NCBI GenBank assembly: GCA_965232345.1
Contig: OZ246969.1
Coordinates: 2,369,613 to 2,433,612, forward strand
Length of the DNA stretch: 64,000 nucleotides
Direction of reading: 5' to 3'
Source of the DNA: Arenicellales bacterium
GTDB lineage: Bacteria; Pseudomonadota; Gammaproteobacteria; Arenicellales; JAJDZL01
Below, in pieces: positions 24,409 through 59,731 of the stretch; within the stretch, counting starts at the first letter, position 1, and each line of letters opens with the position of its first letter. The translations under genes and the position numbers were made by a program. The notes beneath the pieces are model-generated. The model worked only from the letters and a program-made list of their open reading frames with translations, did not search any database and was not told the DNA's origin.

Positions 24409-24430
24409 AAAAAAATCTGAGTCCTAATCA
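24409..24430. repeat. left copy of the 22-bp direct repeat AAAAAAATCTGAGTCCTAATCA (putative attL core)
   Basis: Exact 22/22 identity with 59710-59731. The flanking bases differ on both sides. Confidence 0.85.
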
Positions 24431-25182
24431 TATCTTATACTGTAATAAATTAGTATGAAGGAATAAATTGTTGAAATTCAGCTGAGCGGTTGGCGGTTGA
24501 AAAGTTCGCCGACTTGTTGGTTTCGACGGGAGAGAATTTCACAGAAAAGTTACGAGTTTCCGAACTTCAGGATCGAAAATAGTCTTGAGTGTCATCGGGC
24601 GAATTCACATGGAATCCGGCATCTCTCAAGCATCACTCCACAGCATCTCGACAAAGGTCAATGCAAAAACTGAAGAGACCGCATGAGAAGATCGGAGAAC
24701 GATTGCATGCCGCATTTGGAATGTTTCGGCATCGATCGAGAGCTGAGCTGGGTTCGGCAGTTCAGCCAGGTATTGGTCTCGCCTGACAGGCATTCGAATT
24801 CAAAGTGCAAAAACGGTGCCGGTGAGCATCGCCCGAGAGCAACATTGACATTGATGAATGATGGCAGGAATTGCCGCAGCCGGAGATTGACTGCTTGCAG
24901 AGAGTGTGGATGTGCGATCGAAATCACATTGCGGCTGGTGGAGCTGGCGAGCCAGGCCGGGACCTTTTGACATTTGGAATCGGGAATGCGCAGAGCAATT
25001 GCCATGAATGCACAATTGCCGCGGATGGCGGCTCAGGGTCAATTGCCGCGCGGCGGCGTCAGCTCGGCCCGGCTGACACAGTACGTACACTCTGTCCCAG
25101 CCCCCGCCGGCCGCCGGCGCGCGCGGACCGCCCGCGCCCCGCACCCGCCGCGGCGCGCCCGTCCGCCGCTGAGACACTTGCC

Positions 25183-25797
25183 ATGACTACCGTGCCAGAC
25201 GCGCCGCCGCCCGCCGGCCGCCTCATCGAGCGGCGCGGCCGCAAATACCTGAGCGCCGCCGAGCGCGCCCGCTTCCTCGCCGCCGCCCGGCAGGCCGCGC
25301 GCCCCGAGGTCCAGACCCTGGCCCTGACCCTGGCGCACACCGGCTGCCGCATCTCCGAAGCCCTGGCCCTGCGCGCCGCCGATGTCGACCTCGAGCAGTC
25401 GCTGCTGCGCATCCGCACGCTCAAGCGCCGCACCGAGTGCTGGCGCGAGGTGCCGGTGCCGGCCGAGCTCATCCGCAGCCTCGAACTCGTGCACCGCCTC
25501 AGAACCCGGCAGGGCCGCGCCGCCCGCAGCCGCGCGCGGCTGTGGCCCATGTCGCGCTCCAGCGCCTCGCGCCATATCCGCCGCCTCATGGACCAGGCCG
25601 CCATCCGCGGCCCGCAAGCCTGCGCCAAGGGGCTGCGCCACGGCTTTGGAATCGCCGCGGTCGCAGCCGGTGTGCCGCTCACCACCCTGGCGGCGGTGCT
25701 CGGCCACGCCAGCATCACCACCACCGCAATCTACGCCACGGCGGCCGGCAATGAGGCGCGCCAGCAGCTCAGCCGCATGTGGCGGCGCGCCCCCTAG
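25183..25797 (+). CDS. short tyrosine recombinase (catalytic domain only, about 204 aa)
   Basis: From the ATG at 25183: HTGCRISEALAL (Arg I), KGLRHGFG (H-x-x-R region), LGHASITTTAIY (His/Tyr). No recognisable N-terminal core-binding domain. Very high GC (84/100 at 25201-25300). Confidence 0.72.
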   Translation: MTTVPDAPPPAGRLIERRGRKYLSAAERARFLAAARQAARPEVQTLALTLAHTGCRISEALALRAADVDLEQSLLRIRTLKRRTECWREVPVPAELIRSLELVHRLRTRQGRAARSRARLWPMSRSSASRHIRRLMDQAAIRGPQACAKGLRHGFGIAAVAAGVPLTTLAAVLGHASITTTAIYATAAGNEARQQLSRMWRRAP

Positions 25798-25800
25798 CGC

Positions 25801-26763
25801 TCAGTCCGCATCAATGCTGTCAAGATGCTCCGCCAGACTGCGAAGATGCTCGATCTCCGGGTGCACGTAGCGCATCGTCATCTTCATGTCGGTGTGCCCG
25901 AGCAGACACTGCAGCTCCTTGTACAGCCCAAGCCTCGCCAGCTTGGTGGCCATGGTGTGCCGCAGCTTGTGCGCCGAAATGCTCACCCCGGTCGCAAACC
26001 GCACGCGGGAGAAGAAATTCGACACCGCGCGGCTGTTCATCCGGCCCTCGCGGCACGAGCGGTAGTGCGACGAGAATAGCGAGATGTCGAAGACATAGCG
26101 CTTGTCGAGCTGCGCATCCTCGCCCAGCACCGACACTGTGCGCTCGCGCAGCAGCTCGAGCGACGGCAGCAGCTTCGCCACGATCGGAATCTGCCAGCCG
26201 CGCCGATTCTTGCTCGACTCGGCGCGCAGCTCGATCGTCGCCCGCTCCAGATCCACGTCGCCCCACTTGAGCTCGGTCAGCTGCCGGCGGCGCATGCCCG
26301 TGAAGAACAGCGTCCGCAACAGCACCGCCCAGTACCAGCCCGGCTGGACCGATGTGCGCTCATCCTGCAGAAACGCCATCACCTTCCTCAGCTCCCGGTC
26401 CGTGACGATCTTGGGCCGCTCGACATTCGCCCGCATCAGCAGACCGGACAGGCTGCCCGGCGCCTCCTCCGGCATCAGCCCCCGCCCGGCGGCGAAGCTG
26501 CACAGCGCCCGCATGTGCCTGAGATAGTTGTTCCAAGTGGAGTTGCTGACGTTGCGCGCCAGCGTCCGCTCGCGCCACCGAAGCAGCGCCTCGCGAGTCA
26601 CCTCGCCTGTCCTGTGCACGCCTGAATCGCGCACGAATATATGCGCCACAAACCGGTAGTGAGTGGCCGAAGCGTCCGACAGTGCGCGCTCGCGCGCGTA
26701 CTCCCGCATCAGTTCAAATATATTCATTGACTTATCCTCCTGCGTATGCGCATGAGAGTTCAA
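25801..26763 (-). CDS. tyrosine-type site-specific integrase (XerC/D-like size)
   Basis: 320 aa. N-terminal SAM-like region, FFTGMRRRQLTELKW (Arg I), HKLRHTMAT (HxxR), LLGHTDMKMTMRYVH (His/Tyr). Its stop lies 3 nt from the stop of the convergent short recombinase. Confidence 0.85.
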   Translation of the reverse strand: MNSHAHTQEDKSMNIFELMREYARERALSDASATHYRFVAHIFVRDSGVHRTGEVTREALLRWRERTLARNVSNSTWNNYLRHMRALCSFAAGRGLMPEEAPGSLSGLLMRANVERPKIVTDRELRKVMAFLQDERTSVQPGWYWAVLLRTLFFTGMRRRQLTELKWGDVDLERATIELRAESSKNRRGWQIPIVAKLLPSLELLRERTVSVLGEDAQLDKRYVFDISLFSSHYRSCREGRMNSRAVSNFFSRVRFATGVSISAHKLRHTMATKLARLGLYKELQCLLGHTDMKMTMRYVHPEIEHLRSLAEHLDSIDAD

Positions 26764-26986: not shown

Positions 26987-28528
26987 TCAGGCGCGCGGCC
27001 CGCGAAACGGCCCCCTCAGCACATCCGAAACGCCGCCGGCAGCGCGGTCCAGCCGCCCGCTCAGCTGCCCCCAGCCGCCCGCCAGAGCCTGCGCCGAGCG
27101 CGAGCTGAGCGCGCCGATCAGCAGGAACCAGGCCAGCGGCAGCGTCAGGTACGCGGTCAGCGTGATCAGCCCCAGCACCACATCGGCCACTGTGCCGCTG
27201 CCGCCGAACTCGAACGCCAGCGCATCTGGATACATCGTCTTCAGCAGCTTCTCATCAAGAAACTCAGCCACCGCCCACAGCGCGGTCACGAACCGCAGCG
27301 CGAACAGCATCACCACCGCCCGCACGATGATGCCCGGCTGCAGCGCCGCATACGGCACCACCAGCGGCAGCATCACATACATCAGCATCAGCATCAGCGC
27401 CTGCAGCATCGGCAGCCCGACCACCACCAGCTCCATGACAATGTGCAGCAGCGCCGCCAGCGCCAGCGCGCCGATGCCGGCGGCGATCTGCTGCAGCCCG
27501 TCCGCCGACAGCCACCCCAGCGAGTTGAAGAAGATGCCGGACTCGCGGTCGGCCCGCTCGACCATGATGCGCGGCACCTGATTCAGCATGCGCCGCAGCA
27601 CCCGGTCCTCAAAGCGGCGCACCAGGTCCGGATATCTGCGCCGCTTCTCGGCATCCATGCTGTCCACCACCCGCTCGATATCGCGTTTGAACGACGGCGA
27701 CTGCTGATGCAGATTGCCCAGCAGCCGCCCGCGCAGCCCCCGCGCGGCATCGTCCCACCAGACATCGCAGCGCGGCCGTCCGGCGCCCGGACCCGCGCCG
27801 AGCCAGGCCGCGACCGGCATCCGCGCCTGATAGCCGGTTCCGCAGCGCTGGACATCCGGGCAGGCCCGGTAATAGCCCTCGGTGCGAACAAAAAGATGCG
27901 AGCCGAGCCAGTCCACCGCCTCGAAATCATCCGCCGCCTGCGGCGCGTCCGGCGCGCGCTGGTACTTGGCCAGCGACGGCTCGTAGCAGTCGCGCCGAAA
28001 CTGCCCGAGCTCGGCGATCAGGCTCTCATCGTCGATCGAAAGCTGCGCGACTCTGAGCAGACTCGCCCGCAGCACGGCCGGACTGCCCAGCCCGTCGATG
28101 ACCGACACCACCCGGTCCGTGACCAGCGACGAAGCCTGGTGCACCAGCCACCATAGAATCGGCACCCGAAATCCCTCAACTGAATAGGCACCGTCCAGAT
28201 ACGGCAGATCGGGCGCCTGCGCATGAGTCGGCGTGTCCGTGTAAGGCGCGTCGAACCGGATCTCGTCGCGGCTGACCGGCACCGCCGGCAGAAAGGCGAA
28301 CACGATCACCGCCGCGGCGCTCAGCGCGTCAAGCTCCATGCGCCTCAGCGACACAGCCGCCGCCTCGCGCATCGACTGGCTCCGCATGGGCTCCGACCAG
28401 TTGCGCCAGATCAGCACCGCCAGGGGCAGCAGCACGAGACCGCTGCCGGCCAGCAGCTGCGCGATGCCGTTGGCGATGTGCCAGCCTGTCAGCGTGGTGG
28501 CCAGCTCGAAGTAGGAGTGAACGTTCAT
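26987..28528 (-). CDS. TraG N-terminal-domain-like conjugal transfer membrane protein (terminal gene of the ICE T4SS cluster)
   Basis: About 513 aa from MNVHSYFELATTLTGW. Multiple TM segments at both ends with a large central periplasmic-looking region. Its position after the PFL_4711-like gene matches the family gene order. High GC. Confidence 0.65.
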   Translation of the reverse strand: MNVHSYFELATTLTGWHIANGIAQLLAGSGLVLLPLAVLIWRNWSEPMRSQSMREAAAVSLRRMELDALSAAAVIVFAFLPAVPVSRDEIRFDAPYTDTPTHAQAPDLPYLDGAYSVEGFRVPILWWLVHQASSLVTDRVVSVIDGLGSPAVLRASLLRVAQLSIDDESLIAELGQFRRDCYEPSLAKYQRAPDAPQAADDFEAVDWLGSHLFVRTEGYYRACPDVQRCGTGYQARMPVAAWLGAGPGAGRPRCDVWWDDAARGLRGRLLGNLHQQSPSFKRDIERVVDSMDAEKRRRYPDLVRRFEDRVLRRMLNQVPRIMVERADRESGIFFNSLGWLSADGLQQIAAGIGALALAALLHIVMELVVVGLPMLQALMLMLMYVMLPLVVPYAALQPGIIVRAVVMLFALRFVTALWAVAEFLDEKLLKTMYPDALAFEFGGSGTVADVVLGLITLTAYLTLPLAWFLLIGALSSRSAQALAGGWGQLSGRLDRAAGGVSDVLRGPFRGPRA

Positions 28529-28536
28529 GGCCCGCG

Positions 28537-29868
28537 CTACCGCAGCAGCCACTCCGGCGCCGTGCGGCGCGGCGCCTGCGGTGTCGAGAGCGCCCGGTGC
28601 GCGGCCAGCACCTCAAGCACCGTGCCCGACACCGCCTGCCGCCGGGCCTGCAGCTCCCAGCCGGCCCGCTCGATCTCCCGCTCCAGCACACTCACCTGCG
28701 CGGCCACCGTGTCGGCGACACCGCCGCCGCGCTGGATGTGCGGCTCCATCAGTCCGCTCAGCAGGAGCCGGCGCGCCAGGAACGCCTGCTCCAGCGTCTC
28801 GGCCAGCGCCGCCTCATTGGCCAGCCGCCGGATCAGAAAATCTCGGTCCGGCAGATCGCGCAGCGCCTCGATGACCGGCGCGGCCAGCGCCACATCAGCG
28901 CCCGCGAAGGCCAGCTCTCCGGCCCCGCCCTCCGGGTCCGCTGAATACACGCGCTCGCGCAGCGTCTCAGCCAGGCTGTCTGTCAGCCGGTCAACCTGGG
29001 GCAGAAGCCCCTCGCCGACCACCGTCTCCACCGCCTCTCCAGCCTGGATGCGAAAATCGCCCAGCACTCTGACCACCCAGTGTCCGGCCGCTTCCGAGGT
29101 TGGCCAGGCGCGTCGCAGCGGCGAGTCCGGCCGCGCCTCATCCGAGCGCGGCGCGGCCTCCCGGCAGTCGCTCGGCGCATCCAGCAGCAGACACCAGCCG
29201 GCCTGCGCCGCATCCCGCAGCAGCCAGATCGGCGGCGCGCCCCGGCAGCCGGCTCTGCGGTTGCCAATCCAGGTCACGCAGCCGTCGCTCGCATCCGCGC
29301 TGCGCTTCGCGCTGGCCGCGCTCTCGCCGCGCCCGGCCTCCGTCTCCCAGACCTCGGTGCGCGCCGCCTCCAGCAGGTCCTGACGCGGGGTGGCCGGCCG
29401 CGCGGCGGCGTCGAAATCCCGGCGGCACTCCTCAACCGACCAGTTCCAGCGCTCCTCGGCGCGCACCAGATAATGCTGCAGCAGCTGGCAGGCGCCGGGC
29501 TTGGCGCGGCACAGGACAGACCCCGGCAATGCGCTGGTGACCGCCTGCGGCACCGCGCTCAGCGCGGTGAGCGAATCCTCAAGGCGCGCCGAAAGAATGT
29601 CCAGCACATCCACTGTGTGGCTGAAGCCGGCGCAGGCCGAGCCCAGCGGCGCCGCCGGCCCCTTGAGCGGCGCGGCGCCCCGGCGCTCCGATGCCGCAAT
29701 GTCGGTGGCGCGCCCGCCGCCCAGCAGATAGTAGAGCGCCAGATCATGCACCCGGTCGTCCGCGCCGCGGGCGCAGTCGGCCAGCCCAAGCCCAAGCGAG
29801 CCTGCGAATGCCGCCGCCACCGCCCGCCAGAGCGCGGTCCGCAGCAGGTATCTGAGAATTCGGTTCAT
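28537..29868 (-). CDS. integrating conjugative element protein, PFL_4711 (TIGR03755)-like
   Basis: From the ATG at 29868, preceded by GGGGGAGA: signal-peptide-like MNRILRYLLRTALWRAVAAAFAGSLGLGLA, then LALYYLLGGG. Size is about 443 aa and the position is between the TraU-like and TraG-like genes. Family call from memory. Confidence 0.55.
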   Translation of the reverse strand: MNRILRYLLRTALWRAVAAAFAGSLGLGLADCARGADDRVHDLALYYLLGGGRATDIAASERRGAAPLKGPAAPLGSACAGFSHTVDVLDILSARLEDSLTALSAVPQAVTSALPGSVLCRAKPGACQLLQHYLVRAEERWNWSVEECRRDFDAAARPATPRQDLLEAARTEVWETEAGRGESAASAKRSADASDGCVTWIGNRRAGCRGAPPIWLLRDAAQAGWCLLLDAPSDCREAAPRSDEARPDSPLRRAWPTSEAAGHWVVRVLGDFRIQAGEAVETVVGEGLLPQVDRLTDSLAETLRERVYSADPEGGAGELAFAGADVALAAPVIEALRDLPDRDFLIRRLANEAALAETLEQAFLARRLLLSGLMEPHIQRGGGVADTVAAQVSVLEREIERAGWELQARRQAVSGTVLEVLAAHRALSTPQAPRRTAPEWLLR

Positions 29869-30003
29869 TGTCTCCCCCTGTGCTGTCATTTGCGGACAGA
29901 CTAACACGCGCTGACCATGCTTCAGCGCGAATATCCATCCCCGCGCGCTGACATTTTTTTCAAGCTGTCCGTCACACGCGAAACCGGCGTCTTCGAAACT
30001 ATA

Positions 30004-31194
30004 ATGAACGCCTCTTCCCACACCTGCGTCCAGCCGCCGACTGCCGTGCCCGATGTATCCGCCACCGTCGATTTTGCCGCCGCGCTGATCCGCCGCGCGT
30101 CGGTCACCCCCTGCGACGGCGGCTGTCAGCCGCTGATCGCGCAGCGCCTTGCGCGGCTTGGATTCACCATCGAGTCATTCGACTGCGGCGAGGTCTCGAA
30201 TCTGTACGCGCGGCGCGGCGCCGGCAGCCCGCACCTGACGTTCATCGGACATACCGATGTGGTGCCGACCGGCGAGCCGGAAGGATGGCGCCACCCGCCG
30301 TTTGCCGCCGCGCTGGCGGACGGCTTTCTGCACGGCCGCGGCGCGGCGGACATGAAGGGCTCCATCGCCGCCATGGTCACCGCCTGCGAGCGCGCGCTGG
30401 CGCCCGGCGGCCGCGGCTTTCCAGGCAGCCTGTCATTTCTGCTGACCAGCGACGAGGAGGGGCCGGCGGTCGATGGCGTGCGCCACGCGCTGGCGCGGCT
30501 CGATGCGCGCGGCGAGCGGCTGCAGTACTGCCTGGTCGGCGAGCCGACCTCGGAGACCGCGCTCGGCGACACCATCAAGATCGGCCGCCGAGGCTCATTG
30601 ACCGGCGTCATCACGGTGCGCGGACGGCAGGGGCACGTGGCCTACCCGCACCTGGCCGACAATCCGGTGCACCGCAGCGGCGCGCTGATCTCAGCGCTGG
30701 CGGACCTGGCCTGGAACGACGGGGACGAGGTGTTCCCCGACACAACACTGCAGATCTCCAATGTGAATGCCGGTGTCGGCGCCGAGAATGTGATTCCGGG
30801 CGAGCTTGAACTCAATTTCAACATCCGCTTCTCGCCGGCGCAGACCGCCGCCGGACTGAGACGCGAGATCGAGCGGCTGTGCCGCAGCCTGCCGCTTGAC
30901 TGCGCGATCGAATGGCGTCCGCCTGCAGATCCCTATCGCAGCCGCGGCGCCGAGCTGGCGGCGCTGGTCTCGGCCGCCGTCGCGGATGTGACCGGCAGCG
31001 AGCCGTACCGCTCGACCGGCGGCGGCACCTCGGACGGCCGCTTCGCAGCCGCCACCGGCGCGCAAGTGGTCGAGTTCGGGCCGCTCAACGCAACCATTCA
31101 CCAAGTCAATGAGTGTGTCGGCATCCGCGATCTGGATCGGCTGTCCGAAATCTACCAGCGATTGATCGAGCGTCTGGCCGACGCATCTGCATGA
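30004..31194 (+). CDS. dapE: succinyl-diaminopimelate desuccinylase
   Basis: FIGHTDVVPTGEPEGWRHPPF, GRGAADMKGSIAAM, TSDEEGPAVDG and GGGTSDGRF. M20 peptidase of DapE type. 75/100 GC at 30301-30400. Start taken at 30004 (MNASSH). Confidence 0.85.
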   Translation: MNASSHTCVQPPTAVPDVSATVDFAAALIRRASVTPCDGGCQPLIAQRLARLGFTIESFDCGEVSNLYARRGAGSPHLTFIGHTDVVPTGEPEGWRHPPFAAALADGFLHGRGAADMKGSIAAMVTACERALAPGGRGFPGSLSFLLTSDEEGPAVDGVRHALARLDARGERLQYCLVGEPTSETALGDTIKIGRRGSLTGVITVRGRQGHVAYPHLADNPVHRSGALISALADLAWNDGDEVFPDTTLQISNVNAGVGAENVIPGELELNFNIRFSPAQTAAGLRREIERLCRSLPLDCAIEWRPPADPYRSRGAELAALVSAAVADVTGSEPYRSTGGGTSDGRFAAATGAQVVEFGPLNATIHQVNECVGIRDLDRLSEIYQRLIERLADASA

Positions 31195-32426: not shown

Positions 32427-32429
32427 GTG

Positions 32430-51992: not shown

Positions 51993-53505
51993 TCGCCGGA
52001 CGAATGATGTGCGGTGTGATCAGAAGCACCAGGCTGGTGCGGGTGGTCTTGATTTTCGAATCCTTGCTGAATAGTGCGTTGCTCTTGGAATCGTCGGTCC
52101 GAAACGTGTCGAGTCCGGCAACGAACAGCAGTTCTCCTGAATTCAGTATGACCGGCAGGAGTGCGGAGCGAGACTCGAGGTTTGGCAGCTGGATGACCGG
52201 GTCCTCCGGTCCGGCATCCTGCGGAAAGCGGCTGATCTCCTTGATGCGGGTTGTTCTTACCGTCAAATTGAGCATGATTCGGTTGCTGTCGGCCAGGATT
52301 CTCGGCAGCATGTTGATTGCGATGCCATCTTGGATCTTGCCCGGCAGAAGACGCACCGCGGTCGTCCCTTCGGTGTTGACCACTTCGCGCCGCTCAAGGT
52401 AGGAGGTTTCGTCACCGAAGAAAATCGGCACTGGAAAACCGTTCAGGCCCCGAATCACTGTCGAGGTCAGTTTCGCGACTCGATTGTCTCCGGCTGACTT
52501 TCGCAGTATCACCTCGAAGTCGCTTGCATCAACGGCTGGAGCGCTGGAATGAGTCAATTGGATGCCAACAAGTCCGCCGGCATCGTCGCTGTCAAAGTTG
52601 ATTTCGGCCGCGCTTTTTCCGAATGCCTCCTTCATGAACCCTCTGAAGTTGAAGCCCGCCGCCGCATTCTCACTTTGATGAATCTCGTAAAGGTCGACAT
52701 TCACCAGAACTTGCGTGGTCAGCTCTTGATTCTTGATCGCGATCCAGTCGGCGATCCGCTGCAGAGCGGCCGGGGTGTCGACCACAGTCACTTCACCTGA
52801 CAGGCGGTTGATATTGAATCTGCCGGCTTGCGTGAGCAGACTGCTCAATGACGTTTCGATCTGCTCCCAGAAGTTCGAGGTGTCCATTGAAACGACAACC
52901 CTGTCCTGCGCCTGCAGATCCGATCCGCTGGAGCCGCTCTGAACTGATCCTGAAAGACCGACTGAAGCCTGCCACTTTGTGTCGACGGTTGGAACCAACA
53001 AGGTCCACAGGCCAAGTTCGGTATGAAAGATCTCGATTCGGTTATGACGGACGCGCCAGCTGTAACCTAAGCGGCCGGTTATGTGATTGAGCGCTTCCCT
53101 GGCAGACCCTTGCCAGTTGATCGCGGGAAGTTCGTCTGTTTCAATGTCGGCCGCGATGGTGATGGGCAAGCCGACTTGAGCGGCGATCTGGCGGGTCAGT
53201 TCATACAGCGTGACAGATTCGACGAATGTCAATTCGATTTTCTGATTGAGTTCTGCCGGTTCCGGATCGGGCGAGTCGATCACTCGAATCGGAGACTGCG
53301 GGCCTATCCACGCCTGCGGGTACTGCTGAACGAAATCTGAATCAGGCGTGCCTGCCTTGACCTGAGACGTTCGAACCAGCTCATTCTCGACTTCGTTGAC
53401 GAACTCTTCGGTCGAGGAACTGATTTCAGTCGGCAGTCGGCAGGCGGAAAGCGACACCGCTATCGCGAAAGCTGCGGACAGCTTGATGGAGCGCTCGATA
53501 TTCAT
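51934..53505 (-). CDS. pilN: type IVb pilus secretin lipoprotein, PilN-like
   Basis: 523 aa. Lipobox AIAVSLSACRLP. C-terminal secretin domain (…IAINMLPRILADSNRIMLNLTVRTTRI…LLFVAGLDTFRTDD…LVLLITPHII). Confidence 0.78.
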   Translation of the reverse strand: MNIERSIKLSAAFAIAVSLSACRLPTEISSSTEEFVNEVENELVRTSQVKAGTPDSDFVQQYPQAWIGPQSPIRVIDSPDPEPAELNQKIELTFVESVTLYELTRQIAAQVGLPITIAADIETDELPAINWQGSAREALNHITGRLGYSWRVRHNRIEIFHTELGLWTLLVPTVDTKWQASVGLSGSVQSGSSGSDLQAQDRVVVSMDTSNFWEQIETSLSSLLTQAGRFNINRLSGEVTVVDTPAALQRIADWIAIKNQELTTQVLVNVDLYEIHQSENAAAGFNFRGFMKEAFGKSAAEINFDSDDAGGLVGIQLTHSSAPAVDASDFEVILRKSAGDNRVAKLTSTVIRGLNGFPVPIFFGDETSYLERREVVNTEGTTAVRLLPGKIQDGIAINMLPRILADSNRIMLNLTVRTTRIKEISRFPQDAGPEDPVIQLPNLESRSALLPVILNSGELLFVAGLDTFRTDDSKSNALFSKDSKIKTTRTSLVLLITPHIIRPAIDFSGRRIWRRQGDRSSIL

Positions 53506-54278
53506 CTTGAGCTGGAGCTTGTGTATGCGTCTGGTTCAATCACAAGAACTGAATTGCCGCTGTAGAACTTGCCGATCAGGGGGACCGGAGCGTTTCGATA
53601 GTGCGCGAGCAGCGAACTGACCGCGTCAACCAGTGTGCCCGAGAAGGCTGAAGACTGCGTGATCGCGTAATCGTGGCGAGTGCGCCATTCCAGCGACCAG
53701 TCAGCCAGCTGTGTCCAGCTTTCCAGATTCTCCCGCAGCGTCATGGAACTTTGCAGCTGCCAGGTCCCCGGACTTGTCAATGCGGAGTCATTGGCAGGGT
53801 CGGCCGCATTGGTTCGAACCTGCGAATTTGAAGCCGCCGCCGGTGACTCAATGACCTCGATCGAATCCGCACCGGCGCGCTGAAACCACAGTATCCGCTG
53901 GCCGACATCCTCGTGCAGCTCCCAAGGCTGTCCGACTATGGTCTTCACCGCGGTTCGCACATCCAGCGGTCCGATCGACCGATGAGTTTCCGGCAGCGGC
54001 ATTGCGAGGGTTTGCTGAATGTCCGCGGTTGCGACATGCCTGAATCCGGATCGGTAGAGAATGTAGTCAATCGCCGTCCCGACTGTTTCGACATACGGTG
54101 GAAACCGCGTTTCGATCACAGCAGACAGCAAATCGACCTGGCTGGATTCGGCCGCCAGCGAGTGCAATGAGTAGCGATTCATGCGCTCCATCTCAACGGC
54201 CGAGGTCGCTTCGCAAGACATTGTCAGCGCGAGCGATCCCAATGTTCGGACCGCAAGATTTGTCCTGAAAATATTCAT
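53502..54278 (-). CDS. pilL: PilL-like conjugative transfer region protein (TIGR03748-like, with a TcpQ-like C-terminus)
   Basis: 258 aa. NRYSLHSLAAESSQVDLLSAVIETRFPPYVETVGTAIDYILYRSGF, and C-terminal TLRENLESWTQLADWSLEW. First gene of the pil cluster. Confidence 0.62.
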   Translation of the reverse strand: MNIFRTNLAVRTLGSLALTMSCEATSAVEMERMNRYSLHSLAAESSQVDLLSAVIETRFPPYVETVGTAIDYILYRSGFRHVATADIQQTLAMPLPETHRSIGPLDVRTAVKTIVGQPWELHEDVGQRILWFQRAGADSIEVIESPAAASNSQVRTNAADPANDSALTSPGTWQLQSSMTLRENLESWTQLADWSLEWRTRHDYAITQSSAFSGTLVDAVSSLLAHYRNAPVPLIGKFYSGNSVLVIEPDAYTSSSSR

Positions 54279-54390: not shown

Positions 54391-55302
54391 TCATGCCGGC
54401 GCGGGAATTTTGCTCATGAGATAATTTCGCGCCTTCCAGGCGAGGGCGCTGGATGTGAAAATCGCCTTGGGATCGTTTTCCAGAATCTTTATCCAGTCCA
54501 TGACGTAGGAATCGTGACGCAGCTCGCCGAAAATGTGATAGTCCGCACACAAGAATGCGGACCCAATCTCCGCGATCAGCTCCTCGTACGCATATCCAAC
54601 CGACTTGAATGGAAAGGGATCGACGATGCCGGCCCGATTCAACCTGGACTTATGGCCGGTCCAGTGGGTCAGCTCATGCATGAGGGTGCTGTAGTAGCCG
54701 GCGGTTGACTCGAATGCGGCTTTCGGCGGCATGCAGATGACATCTGATTCGGGAAAATAGGTGGCGACAGTCCCCGCATGCCGCACTTTCGCGCCGCACA
54801 GCTTGATCAGGTCATCGGCGCTGTGATGGGATTCCCAGTTCTGTTCCAGGGTGTGCGTCGGATATCTGCCTTTGGCGACTTTCTCAGGCAGGCCGACGCA
54901 CTGCTCCACATTGAACAATGTGAATGCGCGGGCGATTTTGTAGGGCTGCGCTTTCGGCTGCTCTTCATTTTCGTCATCTTCCAGTTTGCTGGCGACTTCG
55001 ATTTTCTTGAACAGCACAGCGACTGAGCCTTTTTCCCCTTTGCGAATCCGGCCGCCAAGCTTGGAAGCCTGGCGAAAGGACAGCCAGCGGTCGTACTCGT
55101 AGCCGCGGGCGATGGCAGATGCCCAGAGAATGGTGACATTGATTCCTGTGTATCGACGTTCAGTTACCGCATTGACTGGGTACCCCGGCACGGGACAGCA
55201 TTCTGACCAGGGCTTCCGCCATGGCGGTGCGCCGTTTTTCAGCGCGTCGATAAATACTTTTGTAACTTTTGTGAAAACACTTTGAGATTTTTCGTTGGTC
55301 AT
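54391..55302 (-). CDS. ArdC-like antirestriction protein (N-terminal ssDNA-binding domain plus zincin metalloprotease domain)
   Basis: 303 aa. N-terminus ...GAPPWRKPW...NAVTERRYTGINVTILW and C-terminal HELTHWTGH (HExxH). Confidence 0.8.
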   Translation of the reverse strand: MTNEKSQSVFTKVTKVFIDALKNGAPPWRKPWSECCPVPGYPVNAVTERRYTGINVTILWASAIARGYEYDRWLSFRQASKLGGRIRKGEKGSVAVLFKKIEVASKLEDDENEEQPKAQPYKIARAFTLFNVEQCVGLPEKVAKGRYPTHTLEQNWESHHSADDLIKLCGAKVRHAGTVATYFPESDVICMPPKAAFESTAGYYSTLMHELTHWTGHKSRLNRAGIVDPFPFKSVGYAYEELIAEIGSAFLCADYHIFGELRHDSYVMDWIKILENDPKAIFTSSALAWKARNYLMSKIPAPA

Positions 55303-55427
55303 CGTTCCAGAATGAAAATGAAATTGGAACGAAAGTTAACTGATTCTGCAGTGAGTTCAAACAAAAAACATGGAATTCAACCTGACAGGTTTTTTCGCGC
55401 GGCATTTGATCAGCGACATTGCGTCGG

Positions 55428-56774
55428 CTAATTTTGCTTCGAGTCGTCTGCCGCGGATGCGTCGGAGTCGGACCCCGAATCCAAAGCTTGTTCCAGAATG
55501 CGCTGGCGGTATCGTCGCTCAGTTTCGCTGAAATTCTTTTGAGTGTCATTTGCCGCCGCACGCTGCTCGAAAATTCTCTCGGCGTTTTCAATCTGAAACT
55601 GGCCGTCCTCCCTGAGACCGATTCCATGCTGTGTGAGCCGCTTGCAGTAGGTGGACATCAGTGAGACTGGATTCCAGACCGGCGCGCATCGGTTCGCCAA
55701 TCCCGCCTTGATCCGGCCATCCAATTCATCGAGCAGAAGCTGATGCCATGAGTCCCATGGTTTCGGAGGTTCTGGCAGACTCGCGGGCAGCCGTTTCAGG
55801 TTAAGAACGATCAGATGTTTCTGATTGTCGCTCACGGACTCTGGGAACACCAGGTTCGGCTCAAGTTCCAGCAGTTCTTTTTCAGTTGCATCGTTGTAGT
55901 AATTGCTTTTTTTCACTTCCTTACTACCAGTAGGTACTACAGAGTCTGATCGAACTGATGATTTGGACTGGTCTTTTGCTAAGTTGCTGATATCACCGTA
56001 GTTCATCTCGTGAACTGCGGTGATATTCTTGTCGTTGTGATGAGCGCGATGGACTGAGTCGCCGGTTTGATCTCCGATGTCCTCCAATTCGGGGTAAGTG
56101 CCGAAGTAGCTGATTTCAGCATCGCCTTCCAGAGCCATCCAGGCATCTGCCCGCCGTTCGAAGGGGTGTTTGTATTCCATCACATTCCGCCCCGAGCCGA
56201 TCTCATGCCGCAGTGAACTCAGGATCAGCTCAGCAATCTTGCGAACATCGGAATTTCGATGCTTCCTGCTGTCGTTCACAAATCCCATGTAATTGGAATC
56301 AAGTTCGAACGTATCGGTCAATGCCAAGGGTTCACCGTGAACCATGTAAATATTGCCATCTCTTGTGAACTGACCCGACTCATTGCGTTCCTGATCCCGG
56401 CAGAGCAGGGTGATCCAGCGGGTCAGGCGCAGTTTTGCTATGGAGCTTGAAACGGTGCCGCGCGAGATGTTGAGCATGGATTGAATCTCGTCGTAGCTGG
56501 GAAATGAGGCGAGCGACATGTCGGGTGTGCATCGAGACCGGATTGCAAGCCAAACCAGCTTGTCGTACGGATTGAGCACCGGGTCGAAGATCAGCAGCCG
56601 GGGATGTGAGTCGTACCAGTTGTCCGTGAAAATCATTCCGTGCGAGACGCTCTCGCCTCTTCGGAAATTCTTTGCCGCAGACAGGATTCTCGACAGGTTT
56701 CGCTTTATGGATTTGGGTTCAGAATAATCAGCCATGAATCTCGCACCGGGTGAATGGAAATTGGCAGCTCTCAC
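55428..56774 (-). CDS. STY4528-family-like pathogenicity-island protein with wHTH
   Basis: 448 aa. HGMIFTDNWYDSHPRLLIFDPVLNPYDKLVWLAIR...SFPSYDEIQSMLNISRGTVSSSIAKLRLTRWITLL resembles the SPI-7/PAPI-1 STY4528 family N-terminus (from memory). Confidence 0.58.
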   Translation of the reverse strand: MRAANFHSPGARFMADYSEPKSIKRNLSRILSAAKNFRRGESVSHGMIFTDNWYDSHPRLLIFDPVLNPYDKLVWLAIRSRCTPDMSLASFPSYDEIQSMLNISRGTVSSSIAKLRLTRWITLLCRDQERNESGQFTRDGNIYMVHGEPLALTDTFELDSNYMGFVNDSRKHRNSDVRKIAELILSSLRHEIGSGRNVMEYKHPFERRADAWMALEGDAEISYFGTYPELEDIGDQTGDSVHRAHHNDKNITAVHEMNYGDISNLAKDQSKSSVRSDSVVPTGSKEVKKSNYYNDATEKELLELEPNLVFPESVSDNQKHLIVLNLKRLPASLPEPPKPWDSWHQLLLDELDGRIKAGLANRCAPVWNPVSLMSTYCKRLTQHGIGLREDGQFQIENAERIFEQRAAANDTQKNFSETERRYRQRILEQALDSGSDSDASAADDSKQN

Positions 56775-56838
56775 CTCTTACCGCCGCTGGAACTGCGTTG
56801 CAGCCACCGGCGGTGCGAGATTCATTCGACTCCGCGTT

Positions 56839-57420
56839 CTATGCGCTTCGCAGCTGTTTGAGCGAGCCGTCATTCTCCCACTCCTGAATCAGACTCCAGA
56901 TGACCCGGAGCGACACCTCCCGCTTCAGTGACTTGAAGATATCCAAAAACTCTCCAGGCCCGAAGCTGGTGGACTCCTTCAGCGACTTCTCCACCGCTTT
57001 CCAAACCGACTTCTCAACTTCCATTGACGGCTGTATCGGCCGTCCCGGGGCCAGCTCCGACAATCCGAACTGACATCTTCTGAGCTTGAATTGAGTCCGG
57101 GTCATGCCGGTGAGCGAGCGCATCAGCTGCGGCGGAGCGTCGCAGCAGATGAGTTCGTTGATCATGCTCTCCCTGGTGTTCTCCCGAATGACATAATCAA
57201 TCATTCGCCAGAAGATCTTTCGATTCAGATTGATCGACAGAAAATGCGATTTTGTCGATGCCAGGCGCAGTGCATCCGTAGTTGACAGCGTGCTGAGCGC
57301 CCGCACTTCGCTGGGCCCGAACCCCATTTCATACAGAGCGTTGTAGTCACCCTCTTCCTCGCAGCGGTGAAAGAAAAGCACGATTGATCTGATTAGTTCA
57401 GTTTCTTTGCTGATAGACAT
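56839..57420 (-). CDS. DUF2857-like ICE protein
   Basis: 193 aa. Sits directly downstream of the ParB-like gene, as in SPI-7/PAPI-1-type islands. Call made by position and size only. Confidence 0.42.
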   Translation of the reverse strand: MSISKETELIRSIVLFFHRCEEEGDYNALYEMGFGPSEVRALSTLSTTDALRLASTKSHFLSINLNRKIFWRMIDYVIRENTRESMINELICCDAPPQLMRSLTGMTRTQFKLRRCQFGLSELAPGRPIQPSMEVEKSVWKAVEKSLKESTSFGPGEFLDIFKSLKREVSLRVIWSLIQEWENDGSLKQLRSA

Positions 57421-59112
57421 TTATTTACCTCCAGTGTCAGACAAACGAAACAAATGCAGATTGTGCTCGTTTGCCAAATGATGCAGATTTCGATAGGACT
57501 CTGTCAGAGTTTGAATACTGGCCCAGCTCTCGTCATCCAGTTGGCGCAGACAGAAGCCAATCAGGCCGATATGGGGAAATGTACACTTCATTTTTCCCTT
57601 TGCGTGAGAAATTAGTGATTTCGGATCGCCCGATTTAATGAAGTGAAGCAGATCCGTCTTTCCGATCAGTTTTGCGGTGGCGGGACGGGCGCATTCAGTC
57701 GCCCATTGCAGATCGCAGAACTCCACCAGCAGCCACCACAGCGCTTCTCGAGTTGCCGCGGCAGTCGGATTGAGCAGCTCGACCGGGGGCGGGTAGTCAC
57801 AAACGATATAGCCAATCCCCCAATCCCCTGTATTCACAATGATGCGTTTCTTGTTTGACGGATTGACCAGAAAGCTGTGCTGCTTTCCGATTTGTGAGGC
57901 CGCGGCATACGCGTTGCCCCTGAGCGTCGACAGCTTCAGTTCAAGTTCCGAGCGCTGCGGCGGCTTGGCAGATCTGCGCGGTTTCTGGCTTTGAGAATCG
58001 GAATTTTCTGAGTCGCTCTGTTTGGGCGGGTTGACGCCCAGAGTGATGGATTTGAACTCAGGCAGTTTGCCGTAGGGACGCTTCAGCTTGCCTTCAGCTT
58101 TTGCGCTTTTCAGCAGATCACTGGAGTTGATCGGCAGTTTGGGGTGGGCAGCTTCGTGTTTTTGAGCTTGCTCAAACTGTTCCAGTTCCGGGAGAATCTG
58201 TTCGAATGACTCGTGAAGCGGTGTCGATGAGAAACTCAGGTATCCATCAATGCGCAATGAGACATCCTGTATGGAGGTTGACACTTCCTTTGCCAGATTG
58301 GCTTCCAGTGAACGGCGAAAAAACTCCTTGTCCCATTCCGCCTCCGGGTAGCCAATCAGCGCCTGTTGAAATAATTTTCTTGACTGTGCGGCTGTCTTGT
58401 CAAACTCTTTGCAGACATCGCGGAAGGCATTCTGCAGTTTTCGCACACTTAGAATTGACCTGCGTCCCATTGATTCACAAGTGGTCGACGATAAGTTGGG
58501 CTCAATCATCTCAACCGCGTAGAGCATGATCGAAAGAGAGCTCAACGTAACGCTGTATCCTCTTTCGATAAGCTTCTGATGAGAGTGGCGAACTGACGAT
58601 GTCTCTTCATCTTCAGATTCGGTCTGCAGATGATCGATGGCGGCCTTGATGCCGACTGCCTTGTCAATGAAGCACAACGATTTCCGCAGCTCGTTTTCCT
58701 GCAGATGACCAATAATGGCATCAGATTCATAGCCGGACCAGGGCATGAAGGAGCACTCGACAAAACGGAACTTGTAGTCACCTGTTTCCTCAAACAGTTC
58801 TTTGATCGCTTGCAGTCTGGTGTTGCCGCCTTTGTACACAATGAAATTCTGATGGCCCGGACGACGGGTGATGACGATCGGTTGGATCAGTCCGTTCCGG
58901 GCGATGGATTGCTTGATCTTCTGGTAGTTGGGATTCGCGCGTCGCCGCGGGTTGTTCTCATAGGGTTGGATGCTTGAGATTGGCAGGGTGATCAGCGCTC
59001 GATCAGTCAGTGATTCAAAAATGTCCACATCACTTGTTTGACCAGATTTTTCATTGGTAGACTGTGCATTTTCGCCGTGTTCGGGCAATGGGCGTTTCTT
59101 CATGGTTGGCAC
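57421..59112 (-). CDS. ParB-like nuclease-domain protein (ICE PFGI-1-class ParB-like)
   Basis: 563 aa. N-terminal ParB/Srx box: PISSIQPYENNPRRRANPNYQKIKQSIARNGLIQPIVITRRPG...YKGGNTRLQA. Confidence 0.8.
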   Translation of the reverse strand: MPTMKKRPLPEHGENAQSTNEKSGQTSDVDIFESLTDRALITLPISSIQPYENNPRRRANPNYQKIKQSIARNGLIQPIVITRRPGHQNFIVYKGGNTRLQAIKELFEETGDYKFRFVECSFMPWSGYESDAIIGHLQENELRKSLCFIDKAVGIKAAIDHLQTESEDEETSSVRHSHQKLIERGYSVTLSSLSIMLYAVEMIEPNLSSTTCESMGRRSILSVRKLQNAFRDVCKEFDKTAAQSRKLFQQALIGYPEAEWDKEFFRRSLEANLAKEVSTSIQDVSLRIDGYLSFSSTPLHESFEQILPELEQFEQAQKHEAAHPKLPINSSDLLKSAKAEGKLKRPYGKLPEFKSITLGVNPPKQSDSENSDSQSQKPRRSAKPPQRSELELKLSTLRGNAYAAASQIGKQHSFLVNPSNKKRIIVNTGDWGIGYIVCDYPPPVELLNPTAAATREALWWLLVEFCDLQWATECARPATAKLIGKTDLLHFIKSGDPKSLISHAKGKMKCTFPHIGLIGFCLRQLDDESWASIQTLTESYRNLHHLANEHNLHLFRLSDTGGK

Positions 59113-59308
59113 CTCTCAGTTGAACAAAAAGACAAGCGACGAAACAAGAATCGACTCTTGCTTGCCGACTGCTGGTGAAAAATTCGACTCGCGGTTCGAT
59201 TTCGGCCCCTGACGCCCAAAATTGATGGGCCGCGAGTGGATATGACGCGCCTTGAGCAACGCATTCTCGGAGGAGACAAGGGCGCGAGGTCGCAGAAGGA
59301 CCGAATTT

Positions 59309-59397
59309 CGCGTGCACCAGTCCGGTAGACTAAATTAGTCTTTTTTGGAGTGTTTACCGGGTAAACACTCCAAAAATGGACAAATTTGGTGCACGCG
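59309..59397. repeat. nested inverted repeats in the non-coding right arm of the element
   Basis: Read directly. Outer arms: CGCGTGCACCA (59309-59319) / TGGTGCACGCG (59387-59397). Inner palindrome: TTTTTGGAGTGTTTACC-G-GGTAAACACTCCAAAAA (59342-59376, 17-bp arms). A further GACTAA-A-TTAGTC lies at 59328-59340. Confidence 0.7.
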
Positions 59398-59709
59398 AGC
59401 CCTCCATTTCGTCGATTCGGTACATTTTTGCTGAAAAAGTGGTCTACTTTGATCATGGGAGGTGTCGTCGTTGTCAAGCCGGGTGAGAGTTGCATTGTGT
59501 CAGAGTGGCGCTGCTGCTCAACTTATGGGATCAAACAATTTGAATGGGGAAGATCGCGCGCTGTTCCCCGCAACGAAGCCGAATGAATTCGCGTATAATC
59601 TGGATATCCCAAGTGTGCTTCTTGGCGCGCGGACCGCAGTTGCGGGTACGGCCATCTTCGTGATTTCAGCCTTGTTTCCATCCATATTCAATGAGGGTCT
59701 GTGATCACT

Positions 59710-59731
59710 AAAAAAATCTGAGTCCTAATCA
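59710..59731. repeat. right copy of the 22-bp direct repeat (putative attR core)
   Basis: Exact copy of 24409-24430. Here it forms A7-TCTGA / GTCCTAA / TCAG-T7 with the adjoining host-side sequence. Confidence 0.85.

What the first reader, a model, noticed from the sequence alone, without database searches (positions are those of the whole stretch)
24409..59731. 35.3-kb ICE-like island precisely delimited by a perfect 22-bp direct repeat between sixA and metZ
AAAAAAATCTGAGTCCTAATCA occurs exactly twice in the window (24409-24430 and 59710-59731), and the sequences diverge immediately outside the repeat on both sides. The repeat brackets everything that looks mobile: two tyrosine recombinases at the left end, a contiguous minus-strand block of GI-type T4SS genes, a type IVb pilus cluster, and ArdC-like, STY4528-like, DUF2857-like and ParB-like genes at the right end. 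Everything outside it is housekeeping. A chance 22-nt exact match in 64 kb is negligible, so this is best read as an attL/attR pair.
Basis: seen in the sequence. Interest (0 to 1): 0.8.

Follow-up and report, generated by a model that had tools for sequence, protein, structure and literature searches.

The report
Ancient ICE-derived island lacking DNA-transfer genes
The 22-bp repeat really does mark the two ends of a 35-kb integrated element of a known conjugative family, but the element has no relaxase or coupling protein, carries housekeeping-type genes, and has been inherited vertically at this site across a whole clade of uncultured gammaproteobacteria.

Summary
AAAAAAATCTGAGTCCTAATCA occurs exactly twice (24409-24430 and 59710-59731). 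It is not a dispersed repeat.

Its reading as attL/attR is well supported:
- Three related species carry the orthologous island at the same sixA|metZ site.
- Each has its own exact direct repeat (22, 26 and 19 bp) around a shared core, CTGA-GTCYYAA-TCAG.
- Joining the two outer flanks restores a 15/17 palindrome.
- Two intact tyrosine recombinases sit next to attL.

The label "ICE" is only partly right:
- The island has a GI-type (MPF_G) T4SS, a type IVb pilus, and ParB, DUF2857, STY4528 and ArdC.
- It has no T4CP (TraD) and no MobH relaxase. This holds in the window and in the parts of the relatives' islands that I could read.
- TraC and MetZ distances co-vary across 15 genomes (Mantel r=0.91).
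- Synonymous sites are saturated between species, and dN/dS is about 0.04-0.37.
- Island composition matches the host in three relatives.
- dapE, argD, a potA-like ATPase and terC sit inside the T4SS operon in all species.

No empty site was found.

An 8-kb GC3-rich block at the attL end is unexplained.

Verdict: an anciently fixed ICE derivative that cannot transfer itself and probably can still excise. It is a new variant of a known kind, of moderate interest.

The parts
24409..24430 (+). attL core: left copy of the 22-bp direct repeat, containing CTGA-GTCCTAA-TCA.
   Evidence: Species-specific exact counterparts occur in sp2 and sp3.
24431..25182 (.). AT-rich non-coding end of the island between attL and IntA. 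Inferred to be the P' arm and the int promoter region.
   Evidence: GC 0.40-0.51. No credible ORF.
25183..25797 (+). IntA: a tyrosine recombinase of about 204 aa with the catalytic domain only. The mechanical ORF starts at 24871; the likely start is the Met at 25183.
   Evidence: - Pfam PF00589.
- Alignment to XerA/XerD shows the R...RH...H...Y residues.
- 68-73% identical orthologues in sp2 and sp3.
25801..26763 (-). IntB: a Xer-like tyrosine recombinase, convergent with IntA. It is 308 aa from the start at 26724.
   Evidence: - Pfam and NCBIfam hits.
- Catalytic motifs present.
- Orthologues at 61-67% identity in the same genomes that hold the metZ orthologues.
- Small family: 139 clusters at E<=1e-30 among 1.84 billion representatives.
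26987..30021 (-). T4SS distal genes: TraG_N-like (26987-28552) and TIGR03755-like (28537-30021).
29917..34210 (.). Housekeeping-type insert inside the T4SS operon: dapE (29917-31194, +), argD/dapC (31113-32426, +), potA-like ABC ATPase (32430-33536, -) and terC/yjbE (33608-34210, -).
   Evidence: - NCBIfam: dapE 491 bits (cutoff 284), argD 465 bits (cutoff 410), potA 383 bits (cutoff 356).
- In sp2, sp3 and sp4 all four genes lie at the same place; in sp5 terC, the ABC ATPase and a partial aminotransferase gene are seen before the fetched DNA ends, with extra ORFs in between.
34413..44722 (-). MPF_G (GI-type) T4SS core. In order:
- TIGR03756/TraU
- TIGR03757
- TraC/VirB4 (35878-38721)
- TIGR03751, TIGR03752, TIGR03749, TIGR03746, TIGR03750
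- DUF2976-like
- RAQPRD
- TIGR03759-like
- an unknown 237-aa ORF

The TraD/TIGR03747 block expected between TIGR03759 and RAQPRD is missing. Those two genes abut at 43226/43227.
44941..54278 (-). Type IVb pilus cluster:
- PilU prepilin peptidase
- a PilV-like 493-aa ORF
- PilS pilin
- PilR platform protein
- PilQ ATPase
- a PilP-like ORF
- PilO
- PilN secretin
- PilL/TcpQ lipoprotein
54391..59112 (-). Maintenance and establishment module: ArdC, an STY4528-family replication protein, DUF2857, and a PFGI-1-type ParB (TIGR03764).
59342..59376 (.). Perfect palindrome with 17-nt arms (TTTTTGGAGTGTTTACC G GGTAAACACTCCAAAAA) between parB and attR. It is a candidate parS, origin or oriT-like site.
   Evidence: -, family I11.
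- A related palindrome at the same place in sp3.
- Six copies in a 390-bp x 3.2 tandem array in sp2.
59710..59731 (+). attR core: right copy of the 22-bp direct repeat.
23403..23921 (-). Left flank: sixA-like phosphohistidine phosphatase, followed by ppx (21877-23406).
   Evidence: -.
- sixA scores 64 bits, just under the 74.5 cutoff.
- 83-84% identical and syntenic in sp2 and sp3.
60012..61178 (+). Right flank: metZ (O-succinylhomoserine sulfhydrylase), preceded by a conserved leader at about 59925-60010.

Best explanation
The interval 24409-59731 is one integrated element of the PFGI-1/ICEclc/PAPI-1/ICEHin1056 lineage, which uses an MPF_G 'GI-type' T4SS and a type IVb pilus.

**How it got there (inferred).** It entered a palindromic attB in the divergent sixA|metZ intergenic region by tyrosine-recombinase site-specific recombination. 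The 22-bp repeats are the attL and attR cores. The likely strand-exchange region is the 7-bp centre GTCCTAA, flanked by inverted arms.

**How old it is (shown by comparison).** The integration predates the radiation of a clade of uncultured gammaproteobacteria. Since then the island has been inherited vertically.

**What it lost.** In the common ancestor of the species I could examine, it had already lost the DNA-processing and coupling module: the TraD T4CP, TIGR03747 and the MobH relaxase. ParA was lost later, in the window's lineage. It therefore cannot conjugate on its own.

**What it kept.** Under purifying selection it retains the T4SS, the pilus, the ParB/DUF2857/STY4528/ArdC module, both recombinases and both att sites.

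**Inferred, not shown.**
- IntB, possibly together with IntA, can still recombine attL x attR. That is why the two cores stay identical within each genome while differing between species.
- The dapE/argD/potA-like/terC block inside the T4SS operon makes loss of the island costly. This would help explain its fixation.
For: **Boundaries and att sites**
- The repeat is exact, occurs twice and is not dispersed.
- The orthologous island lies at the same site in sp2 (about 37.1 kb), sp3 (about 35.4 kb) and sp4 (right junction seen next to metZ; left junction not reached). A middle stretch of a fifth species (sp5) has the same gene order.
- Exact repeats are species-specific:
  - window: AAAAAAATCTGAGTCCTAATCA
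  - sp2: AAAATTTGAGTCCCAATCAGTTTTTC
  - sp3: AAAACCTGAGTCTTAATCA
- The sp4 attR carries CACTGAGTCTTAATCAG.
- Joining the outer flanks of the window gives arms that match 15/17 around GTCCTAA. The reconstructed attP gives only 9/17.
- IntA and IntB both carry catalytic residues and are conserved across species.

**Family**
- These NCBIfam models score above their cutoffs: TIGR03744, TIGR03746, TIGR03749, TIGR03751, TIGR03752, TIGR03756, RAQPRD, the TIGR03764 ParB and STY4528.

**No T4CP or relaxase**
- Every ORF of at least 190 aa in the island is assigned or lies antisense to an assigned gene.
- No intergenic gap exceeds about 750 bp.
- A canonical relative has TraD and TIGR03747 between TIGR03759 and RAQPRD, and MobH beyond the integrase.
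- tblastn with those proteins finds nothing in the window or in the relatives' loci (E>0.08). The TraC, TIGR03755, TraG_N and TIGR03759 controls all hit.

**Vertical history**
- TraC and MetZ pairwise distances in 15 genomes give Mantel r=0.915, p=1e-4.
- All island genes give the same tree, ((W, sp2, sp3), sp4).
- pS is 0.65-0.83 in most island genes and in the flanks, with dN/dS between 0.04 and 0.37.
- Island GC3 equals host GC3 in sp3, sp4 and sp5.
Against: - No empty attB was found in any relative. No circular junction could be looked for. Integration is therefore inferred, not observed.
- MetZ is physically adjacent to the island, so it is not an independent host marker.
- The middle of the sp2 and sp3 islands was not read. 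There, absence of the T4CP and relaxase rests on island size.
- The rest of the 3.54-Mb source genome could not be searched. A T4CP and relaxase acting in trans cannot be excluded. Nor can a second copy of dapE or argD elsewhere.
- Identity of the left arms of attL and attR is not produced by strand exchange within a 7-bp overlap. It needs co-selection or another homogenising process.
- The 8-kb GC3-rich block at the attL end is not explained by simple vertical descent.
Confidence: 0.75

Rival explanations
1. It is an active, self-transmissible ICE that has integrated independently and recently at a conserved attB in each species.
For: - The element has intact att repeats, two intact recombinases, a nearly complete T4SS and pilus, and ArdC.
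- The same attachment site is used in several species.
Against: - There is no T4CP and no relaxase, and no remnant of either.
- Synonymous sites between the islands of different species are as saturated as in flanking core genes.
- TraC and MetZ distances are congruent.
- Island composition matches the host in hosts of 42%, 46% and 50% GC.
Confidence: 0.04
2. It is a mobilisable passenger. It excises through IntA/IntB, then is nicked and transferred by the relaxase and T4CP of a co-resident complete MPF_G ICE. The palindrome at 59342-59376 would serve as the oriT-like site.
For: - The att cores stay identical within each genome.
- A conserved palindrome, amplified in sp2, lies near attR.
- Second, divergent TraC paralogues (47-49% identity) lie on contigs whose length matches that of two related genomes (matching by length only). 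So other MPF_G elements probably circulate in this clade.
Against: - No between-species exchange is detectable.
- A passenger would not need to keep a full T4SS and pilus under purifying selection.
- No helper element was seen, because the source genome could not be read.
Confidence: 0.15
3. It is a dead remnant. The repeats and recombinases are relics, and the T4SS and pilus genes are decaying.
For: - The transfer module and ParA are lost.
- One sp3 strain variant (L006) has the T4SS side replaced from within traU by an IS605 tnpB fragment and benE.
- sp5 has methyltransferase insertions and lacks some small genes.
Against: - All about 35 genes are intact, with orthologue-like lengths, in the window and in every part of the relatives' islands that was read. 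This holds despite saturated synonymous divergence.
- dN/dS is 0.04-0.37.
- The att cores are exact within each genome but differ between genomes. Neutral relics would not behave this way.
Confidence: 0.06

Closest known systems
PAPI-1 / pKLC102 (Pseudomonas aeruginosa) and SPI-7 (Salmonella Typhi): ICEs with a GI-type T4SS and a type IVb pilus
   Same: - Same overall layout. ParB, DUF2857, STY4528 and ArdC are followed by the pilL-V type IVb pilus cluster, then the TIGR037xx T4SS genes with TraC, then TraG_N, with the integrase at the far end. Comparison with the published layouts rests on my own knowledge.
- A 35-bp palindrome lies near the par end.
   Different: - No TraD, TIGR03747 or MobH/TraI.
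- No ParA or DnaB in the window.
- No tRNA target. The site is an intergenic palindrome.
- There are two small recombinases, and IntB is only 22% identical to the integrase of a family member.
- The element is 35 kb rather than about 100 kb.
- Its TraC is only about 37% identical to the nearest plasmid-borne relatives.
- It is fixed and co-diverges with the host.
ICEHin1056 / ICEclc / PFGI-1 (the MPF_G model systems; Guglielmini et al. 2014, PMC4027160)
   Same: It has homologues of most tfc/TIGR037xx components, in the canonical order.
   Different: - It lacks the T4CP (Tfc6/TraD) and the relaxase.
- A housekeeping-type insert splits TIGR03756 from TIGR03755.
MOBless T4SS as a class, and T4CP-less examples such as Bordetella Ptl, Brucella VirB and Helicobacter ComB (Guglielmini et al. 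2013, PMC3548315)
   Same: It is a chromosomal T4SS without a neighbouring relaxase, kept intact over long times. This is the pattern that paper reads as exaptation. The paper states that relaxase loss recurs in all MPF types, and that only MPF_T and MPF_I have been shown to deliver proteins.
   Different: - This one still has integrases and att sites, which many MOBless T4SS lack.
- It belongs to MPF_G, for which that 2013 paper reports no non-conjugative function.
- No substrate or function is known.
Domesticated plasmids and chromids that carry core genes (for example the Pantoea plasmids, PMC12612815, seen)
   Same: A formerly mobile replicon became stably inherited in a lineage and carries housekeeping-type genes.
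   Different: - Here the element is integrated, not extrachromosomal.
- Essentiality of its dapE and argD copies is not shown.

Membership tests
Element integrated by site-specific recombination (attL/attR) | Identical core sequence in direct orientation at both ends | tested here: met
   A 22/22 exact repeat in the window. The repeats are 26 bp in sp2 and 19 bp in sp3, at the same boundaries.
Element integrated by site-specific recombination (attL/attR) | Recombinase gene next to one end | tested here: met
   IntA and IntB lie within 2.4 kb of attL. Both carry catalytic residues.
Element integrated by site-specific recombination (attL/attR) | Empty site (single core between sixA and metZ) in a relative | tested here: inconclusive
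   All relatives whose metZ or sixA junction was read carry the island there. Pattern scans of genomes and metagenomes gave only chance hits. As a surrogate, joining the window's flanks restores a 15/17 palindrome.
Element integrated by site-specific recombination (attL/attR) | Circular attP junction or restored attB in reads | not testable with these tools
   No read data are available.
Self-transmissible ICE (CONJscan/ICEfinder logic: integrase + relaxase + T4CP + VirB4 + MPF genes) | VirB4/TraC ATPase with class-specific MPF genes | tested here: met
   TIGR03744 scores 864 bits against a cutoff of 521. TIGR03746, TIGR03749, TIGR03751, TIGR03752 and TIGR03756 also exceed their cutoffs.
Self-transmissible ICE (CONJscan/ICEfinder logic: integrase + relaxase + T4CP + VirB4 + MPF genes) | Type IV coupling protein (TraD/VirD4) | tested here: not met
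   No Pfam or NCBIfam hit in any island ORF. tblastn with a family TraD finds nothing (E>0.2) while the controls hit. The genes that flank it in a canonical relative abut at 43226/43227.
Self-transmissible ICE (CONJscan/ICEfinder logic: integrase + relaxase + T4CP + VirB4 + MPF genes) | Relaxase (MOBH/TraI in this lineage) | tested here: not met
   No hit by Pfam, NCBIfam or tblastn with a family MobH. No unassigned space is large enough to hold one.
Self-transmissible ICE (CONJscan/ICEfinder logic: integrase + relaxase + T4CP + VirB4 + MPF genes) | Integrase | tested here: met
PFGI-1/ICEclc/PAPI-1 lineage (descent, not function) | PFGI-1-type ParB, DUF2857, STY4528 and RAQPRD, with TIGR037xx synteny | tested here: met
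   TIGR03764 scores 194 bits (cutoff 144), STY4528 143 bits (cutoff 130) and RAQPRD 56 bits (cutoff 50). The gene order matches the Stutzerimonas plasmid relative.
PFGI-1/ICEclc/PAPI-1 lineage (descent, not function) | Integration into the 3' end of a tRNA gene | tested here: not met
   ARAGORN finds no tRNA in the 64 kb and there is no Rfam hit. The site is intergenic.
Exapted (MOBless) T4SS | T4SS without a relaxase, kept intact by purifying selection over long divergence | tested here: met
Exapted (MOBless) T4SS | A demonstrated non-conjugative function or substrate | not testable with these tools
   No candidate effector was identified, and an experiment would be needed.

The most novel reading that the evidence does not exclude
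A whole clade of uncultured gammaproteobacteria has kept an ICE-derived island with four unusual properties, over a divergence of about 20-40% in MetZ.
- A GI-type (MPF_G) T4SS without relaxase or T4CP, together with a type IVb pilus, has been recruited for a host function such as secretion, adhesion or DNA uptake.
- The island is locked in place because it captured the lineage's dapE and argD inside the T4SS operon.
- A two-recombinase excision and integration system remains active, and it keeps attL and attR evolving in concert.
- The GC3 gradient that peaks at the attL end records recurrent recombination that starts at that end.
Probability: 0.25. Interest if true: 0.7.

Novelty: new variant of a known kind. 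Interest (0 to 1): 0.5.

Why it matters
ICEs are usually treated as transient, mobile and quick to decay once they lose transfer functions. Here an element of a well-known ICE lineage lost its relaxase and coupling protein long ago. It has nonetheless kept its T4SS, pilus, partition genes, recombinases and attachment sites intact through order-level divergence.

- If the T4SS and pilus serve the host, this would be the first candidate non-conjugative use of an MPF_G system that I know of.
- If dapE and argD are the only copies in the genome, it shows how an integrated element can fix itself by capturing essential genes.
- The three species-specific but internally identical att cores give a ready-made set of natural att variants. 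They could be used to study how a tyrosine recombinase and its sites co-evolve.

Tried and rejected
- **tRNA or known RNA as target.** No tRNA and no Rfam family in the window.
- **Dispersed or REP-like repeat.** Rejected.
- **Retrieving the source genome or same-species strains.** Exact-protein look-ups with MetZ, SixA, TraC and P0001 found nothing on record. No same-species empty site or second strain could be examined.
- **Empty site by pattern scan.** A scan for the core plus the metZ leader in JGI metagenomes gave two hits inside long ORFs. About that many chance hits are expected.
- **Shufflon or invertible switch acted on by IntA.** No suitable inverted repeats near pilV or near the integrases.
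- **GC-rich left block as a foreign replacement from outside the clade.** Rejected as the simple explanation. Its proteins are as similar to sp2, sp3 and sp4 as those of the rest of the island and give the same tree.
- **IntB as the usual family integrase.** It is only 22% identical to the integrase of a canonical plasmid relative. It belongs to a small separate subfamily.
- **metZ leader as a known SAM riboswitch.** No Rfam match even at E<=1. Four sequences give little covariation.
- **The 666-aa 'gene' in sp2 next to attR.** It is a 390-bp tandem array of the palindrome and probably not a gene.
Full report
**1. Observation**

The 22-mer AAAAAAATCTGAGTCCTAATCA occurs exactly twice, at 24409-24430 and 59710-59731. 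Both copies are on the + strand. No further copy appears at up to 3 mismatches, and none is expected by chance. Sequence outside the copies diverges at once on both sides. It is the only long exact direct repeat bracketing the region. A 20-nt version was scanned against one genome for each of 185,579 species. It hit once, in a 34% GC Flavobacteriales MAG, which is about the chance expectation. So it is not a dispersed repeat. No tRNA, tmRNA or Rfam family lies in the window.

**2. Gene content**

From left to right, the island holds:
- IntA, about 204 aa, catalytic domain only, + strand.
- IntB, 308 aa, Xer-like, convergent with IntA.
- TraG_N and TIGR03755.
- A 5-kb insert: dapE, argD/dapC, a potA-like ABC ATPase and terC/yjbE.
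- TIGR03756/TraU, TIGR03757, TraC/VirB4 (TIGR03744), TIGR03751, TIGR03752, TIGR03749, TIGR03746, TIGR03750, a DUF2976-like ORF, RAQPRD and a TIGR03759-like ORF.
- A type IVb pilus cluster: PilU, V, S, R, Q, P, O, N and L.
- ArdC, an STY4528-family replication protein, DUF2857 and a PFGI-1-type ParB.

This is the PFGI-1/ICEclc/PAPI-1/ICEHin1056 (MPF_G) lineage.

The flanks are ppx and a sixA-like gene on the left and metZ on the right. Further left lie ordinary core genes: RNase D, fumarase, dinB, relA/spoT, ftsH and glmM-like. The flanks also hold a Fic/DOC gene in an AT-rich patch and an IS5 transposase. So they are not purely housekeeping.

**3. What is missing**

A canonical relative, a Stutzerimonas plasmid, shows the expected order:
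- TIGR03759, two small genes, TraD (the T4CP), TIGR03747, then RAQPRD and on to TraC.
- TIGR03757, TIGR03756, TIGR03755 and TraG_N.
- The integrase, then the MobH relaxase.

In the window, TIGR03759 and RAQPRD abut at 43226/43227, and TraG_N is followed directly by the integrases. Every ORF of at least 190 aa is either assigned or antisense to an assigned gene, and no intergenic gap exceeds about 750 bp.

I ran tblastn with the relative's TraD, TIGR03747 and MobH against the window and against all loci fetched from related species. It gave nothing (E>0.08). The TraC, TIGR03755, TraG_N and TIGR03759 controls all hit. ParA, present next to attR in sp4, is also absent from the window.

The element therefore fails two defining criteria of a self-transmissible ICE.

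**4. Relatives**

The source genome (a 3.54-Mb contig, P0001) could not be retrieved. MetZ, IntB and TraC homologue searches and context look-ups gave the following.

| Species | Contig (bp) | MetZ identity | What was read |
|---|---|---|---|
| sp2 | 3,805,514 | 80% | Both ends |
| sp3 | 1,077,259 | 81% | Both ends |
| sp4 | 3,425,439 | 68% | Island read except its left tip (attL and the 3' end of the integrase) |
| sp5 | 3,785,581 | 64% | Middle part |

In sp2, sp3 and sp4 the same island was seen at one or both of its junctions with sixA and metZ, and sp5 shows the same gene order. The dapE-argD-ABC-terC insert lies between TraU and TIGR03755 in sp2, sp3 and sp4. In sp5, terC, the ABC ATPase and a partial aminotransferase gene are seen before the fetched DNA ends. 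Island sizes from record coordinates are about 37.1 kb in sp2 and 35.4 kb in sp3. That leaves no room for a T4CP and a relaxase. The sp4 gene list runs from ParA to the integrase and contains neither.

No relative has an empty site.

**5. The att sites**

At both junctions each species has its own exact repeat:

| Species | Repeat | Length |
|---|---|---|
| Window | AAAAAAATCTGAGTCCTAATCA | 22 bp |
| sp2 | AAAATTTGAGTCCCAATCAGTTTTTC | 26 bp |
| sp3 | AAAACCTGAGTCTTAATCA | 19 bp |

The sp4 attR has CACTGAGTCTTAATCAG. The shared core is CTGA-GTCYYAA-TCAG.

The two copies are identical within a genome but differ between genomes at 2-4 positions. Two neutral relics could not behave this way. It implies that both sites remain under joint constraint or are homogenised, as expected if they are still recombined.

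Joining the window's outer flanks gives ACTTCAAAAAAATCTGA|GTCCTAA|TCAGTTTTTTTGGAAGT. Its arms match 15/17, against 9/17 for the reconstructed attP. This symmetry uses bases outside the repeat on both flanks. It is therefore independent evidence that the flanks were once contiguous, and it has the form of a tyrosine-recombinase core site.

IntA and IntB both carry the catalytic Arg, His/Lys, Arg, His and Tyr residues. They are conserved at 61-73% identity. IntB belongs to a small subfamily: 139 clusters at E<=1e-30 among 1.84 billion representatives. It is only 22% identical to the integrase of the plasmid relative.

**6. History**

Their pairwise distance matrices correlate with Mantel r=0.915, p=1e-4, and show matching sub-clades.
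- Every island gene gives the same tree, ((window, sp2, sp3), sp4). Identities are 55-91%, similar to those of SixA, Ppx and MetZ.
- Synonymous sites are saturated in most island genes and in the flanks (pS 0.65-0.83). dN/dS is 0.04-0.37 for island genes.
- Island GC3 equals host GC3 in sp3, sp4 and sp5, whose hosts have 46%, 42% and 50% GC.

Together these results indicate ancient integration, vertical descent and purifying selection. They give no sign of recent exchange between species.

There are two caveats. MetZ is linked to the island, so it is not an independent host marker.

**7. Interpretation**

The ICE reading holds for ancestry but not for present function. MOBless T4SSs are a recognised class, interpreted as frequent exaptations. 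According to Guglielmini et al. 2013 (PMC3548315), only MPF_T and MPF_I systems had been shown to deliver proteins. This island is a T4CP-less, MOBless MPF_G example that unusually retains integrases and att sites.

- I rate continued excision competence at about 0.5-0.6.
- Mobilisation in trans by a co-resident ICE remains possible. Divergent TraC paralogues lie on contigs whose length matches two related genomes, which suggests that other MPF_G elements circulate in the clade.
- The dapE hit passes two equivalog cutoffs and the argD hit passes its subfamily cutoff. The ABC ATPase is the most conserved gene of the locus, at 84-91% identity. This suggests, but does not prove, that losing the island would be costly.

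**8. Unexplained**

A block from about 24.9 to 33.3 kb, running from IntA into the ABC ATPase gene, has GC 0.62-0.78 and GC3 0.74-0.87. The flanks have GC3 0.55-0.63. The orthologous block is also raised in sp2 (0.63-0.77 against about 0.50) but not in sp3, sp4 or sp5. The edge is sharp at the attL side and decays inward. Protein identities and tree topology there match the rest of the island.

Two readings remain open:
- Replacement of the att-proximal end by an unsampled GC-rich member of the same island family.
- Local GC-biased recombination.

**9. Other features**

- A perfect palindrome with 17-nt arms lies at 59342-59376, between parB and attR. It has a related counterpart in sp3 and is amplified to six copies in a 390-bp tandem array in sp2. 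It is a candidate parS, origin or oriT-like site.
- One sp3 strain variant (L006) has the T4SS side replaced, from within traU, by an IS605 tnpB fragment and benE.

Noticed in passing
window 24900-33300; L004 4200-11600: An 8-kb block at the attL end of the island has GC3 of 0.74-0.87, against 0.55-0.63 in the flanks. The orthologous block is also raised in sp2 but not in sp3, sp4 or sp5. Its proteins are no more divergent than those of the rest of the island. The edge is sharp at attL and decays gradually inward.
   Followed up: partly
window 29917-34210: Housekeeping-type genes sit inside the T4SS operon in every species examined: dapE, argD/dapC, a potA-like ABC ATPase without partner permease genes, and terC/yjbE. 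The ABC ATPase is 84-91% identical between species, which makes it the most conserved gene of the locus.
   Followed up: partly
window 59342-59376; L003 9020-9078; L002 7777-9010: A perfect 35-bp palindrome lies between parB and attR. A related palindrome occupies the same place in sp3. In sp2 six copies form a 390-bp x 3.2 tandem array that gene callers annotated as a 666-aa ORF.
   Followed up: partly
window 59925-60010 (and L002, L003, L009 about 9905-10000): A strongly conserved leader of about 90 nt lies upstream of metZ (…TTTGATTTTCAGCTTGCCGGCGCG…GGCTAAAGCGAA…GGTTTGC…). It has no Rfam match even at E<=1. Four sequences give too little covariation to support a structure.
   Followed up: partly
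window 19979-21316: A Fic/DOC-domain gene sits in a 45-48% GC patch (about 19-22 kb). It is absent from the corresponding flank in sp2 and sp3, so it is probably a separate small insertion.
   Followed up: no
window 62322-63356: An IS5-family transposase with GC3 of 0.88 lies in the right flank, next to an unknown 217-aa ORF (61482-62135). Neither is present in the relatives' flanks.
   Followed up: no
L006 1-2300: A strain variant of sp3 is nearly identical to L005 from the 3' end of traU onward (23 mismatches in about 18.6 kb). Upstream of that point it carries an IS605 tnpB fragment and benE instead of the T4SS. This is either an IS-associated deletion or rearrangement, or an assembly chimera at 5x coverage.
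   Followed up: partly
L008 1-10906: A distant IntB homologue (36% identity) sits at the end of a different island of about 10 kb. That island holds HTH regulators, a large helicase, Gp49 and ProQ, and lies next to phaC in a JGI contig. No TGAGTC..AATCA core was found there.
   Followed up: no
L012/L013 3300-4760 and 15570-16870: In sp5 the island has acquired N6/N4 DNA methyltransferase genes with T5orf172 domains, inserted in the T4SS region. So the island still accepts insertions.
   Followed up: no
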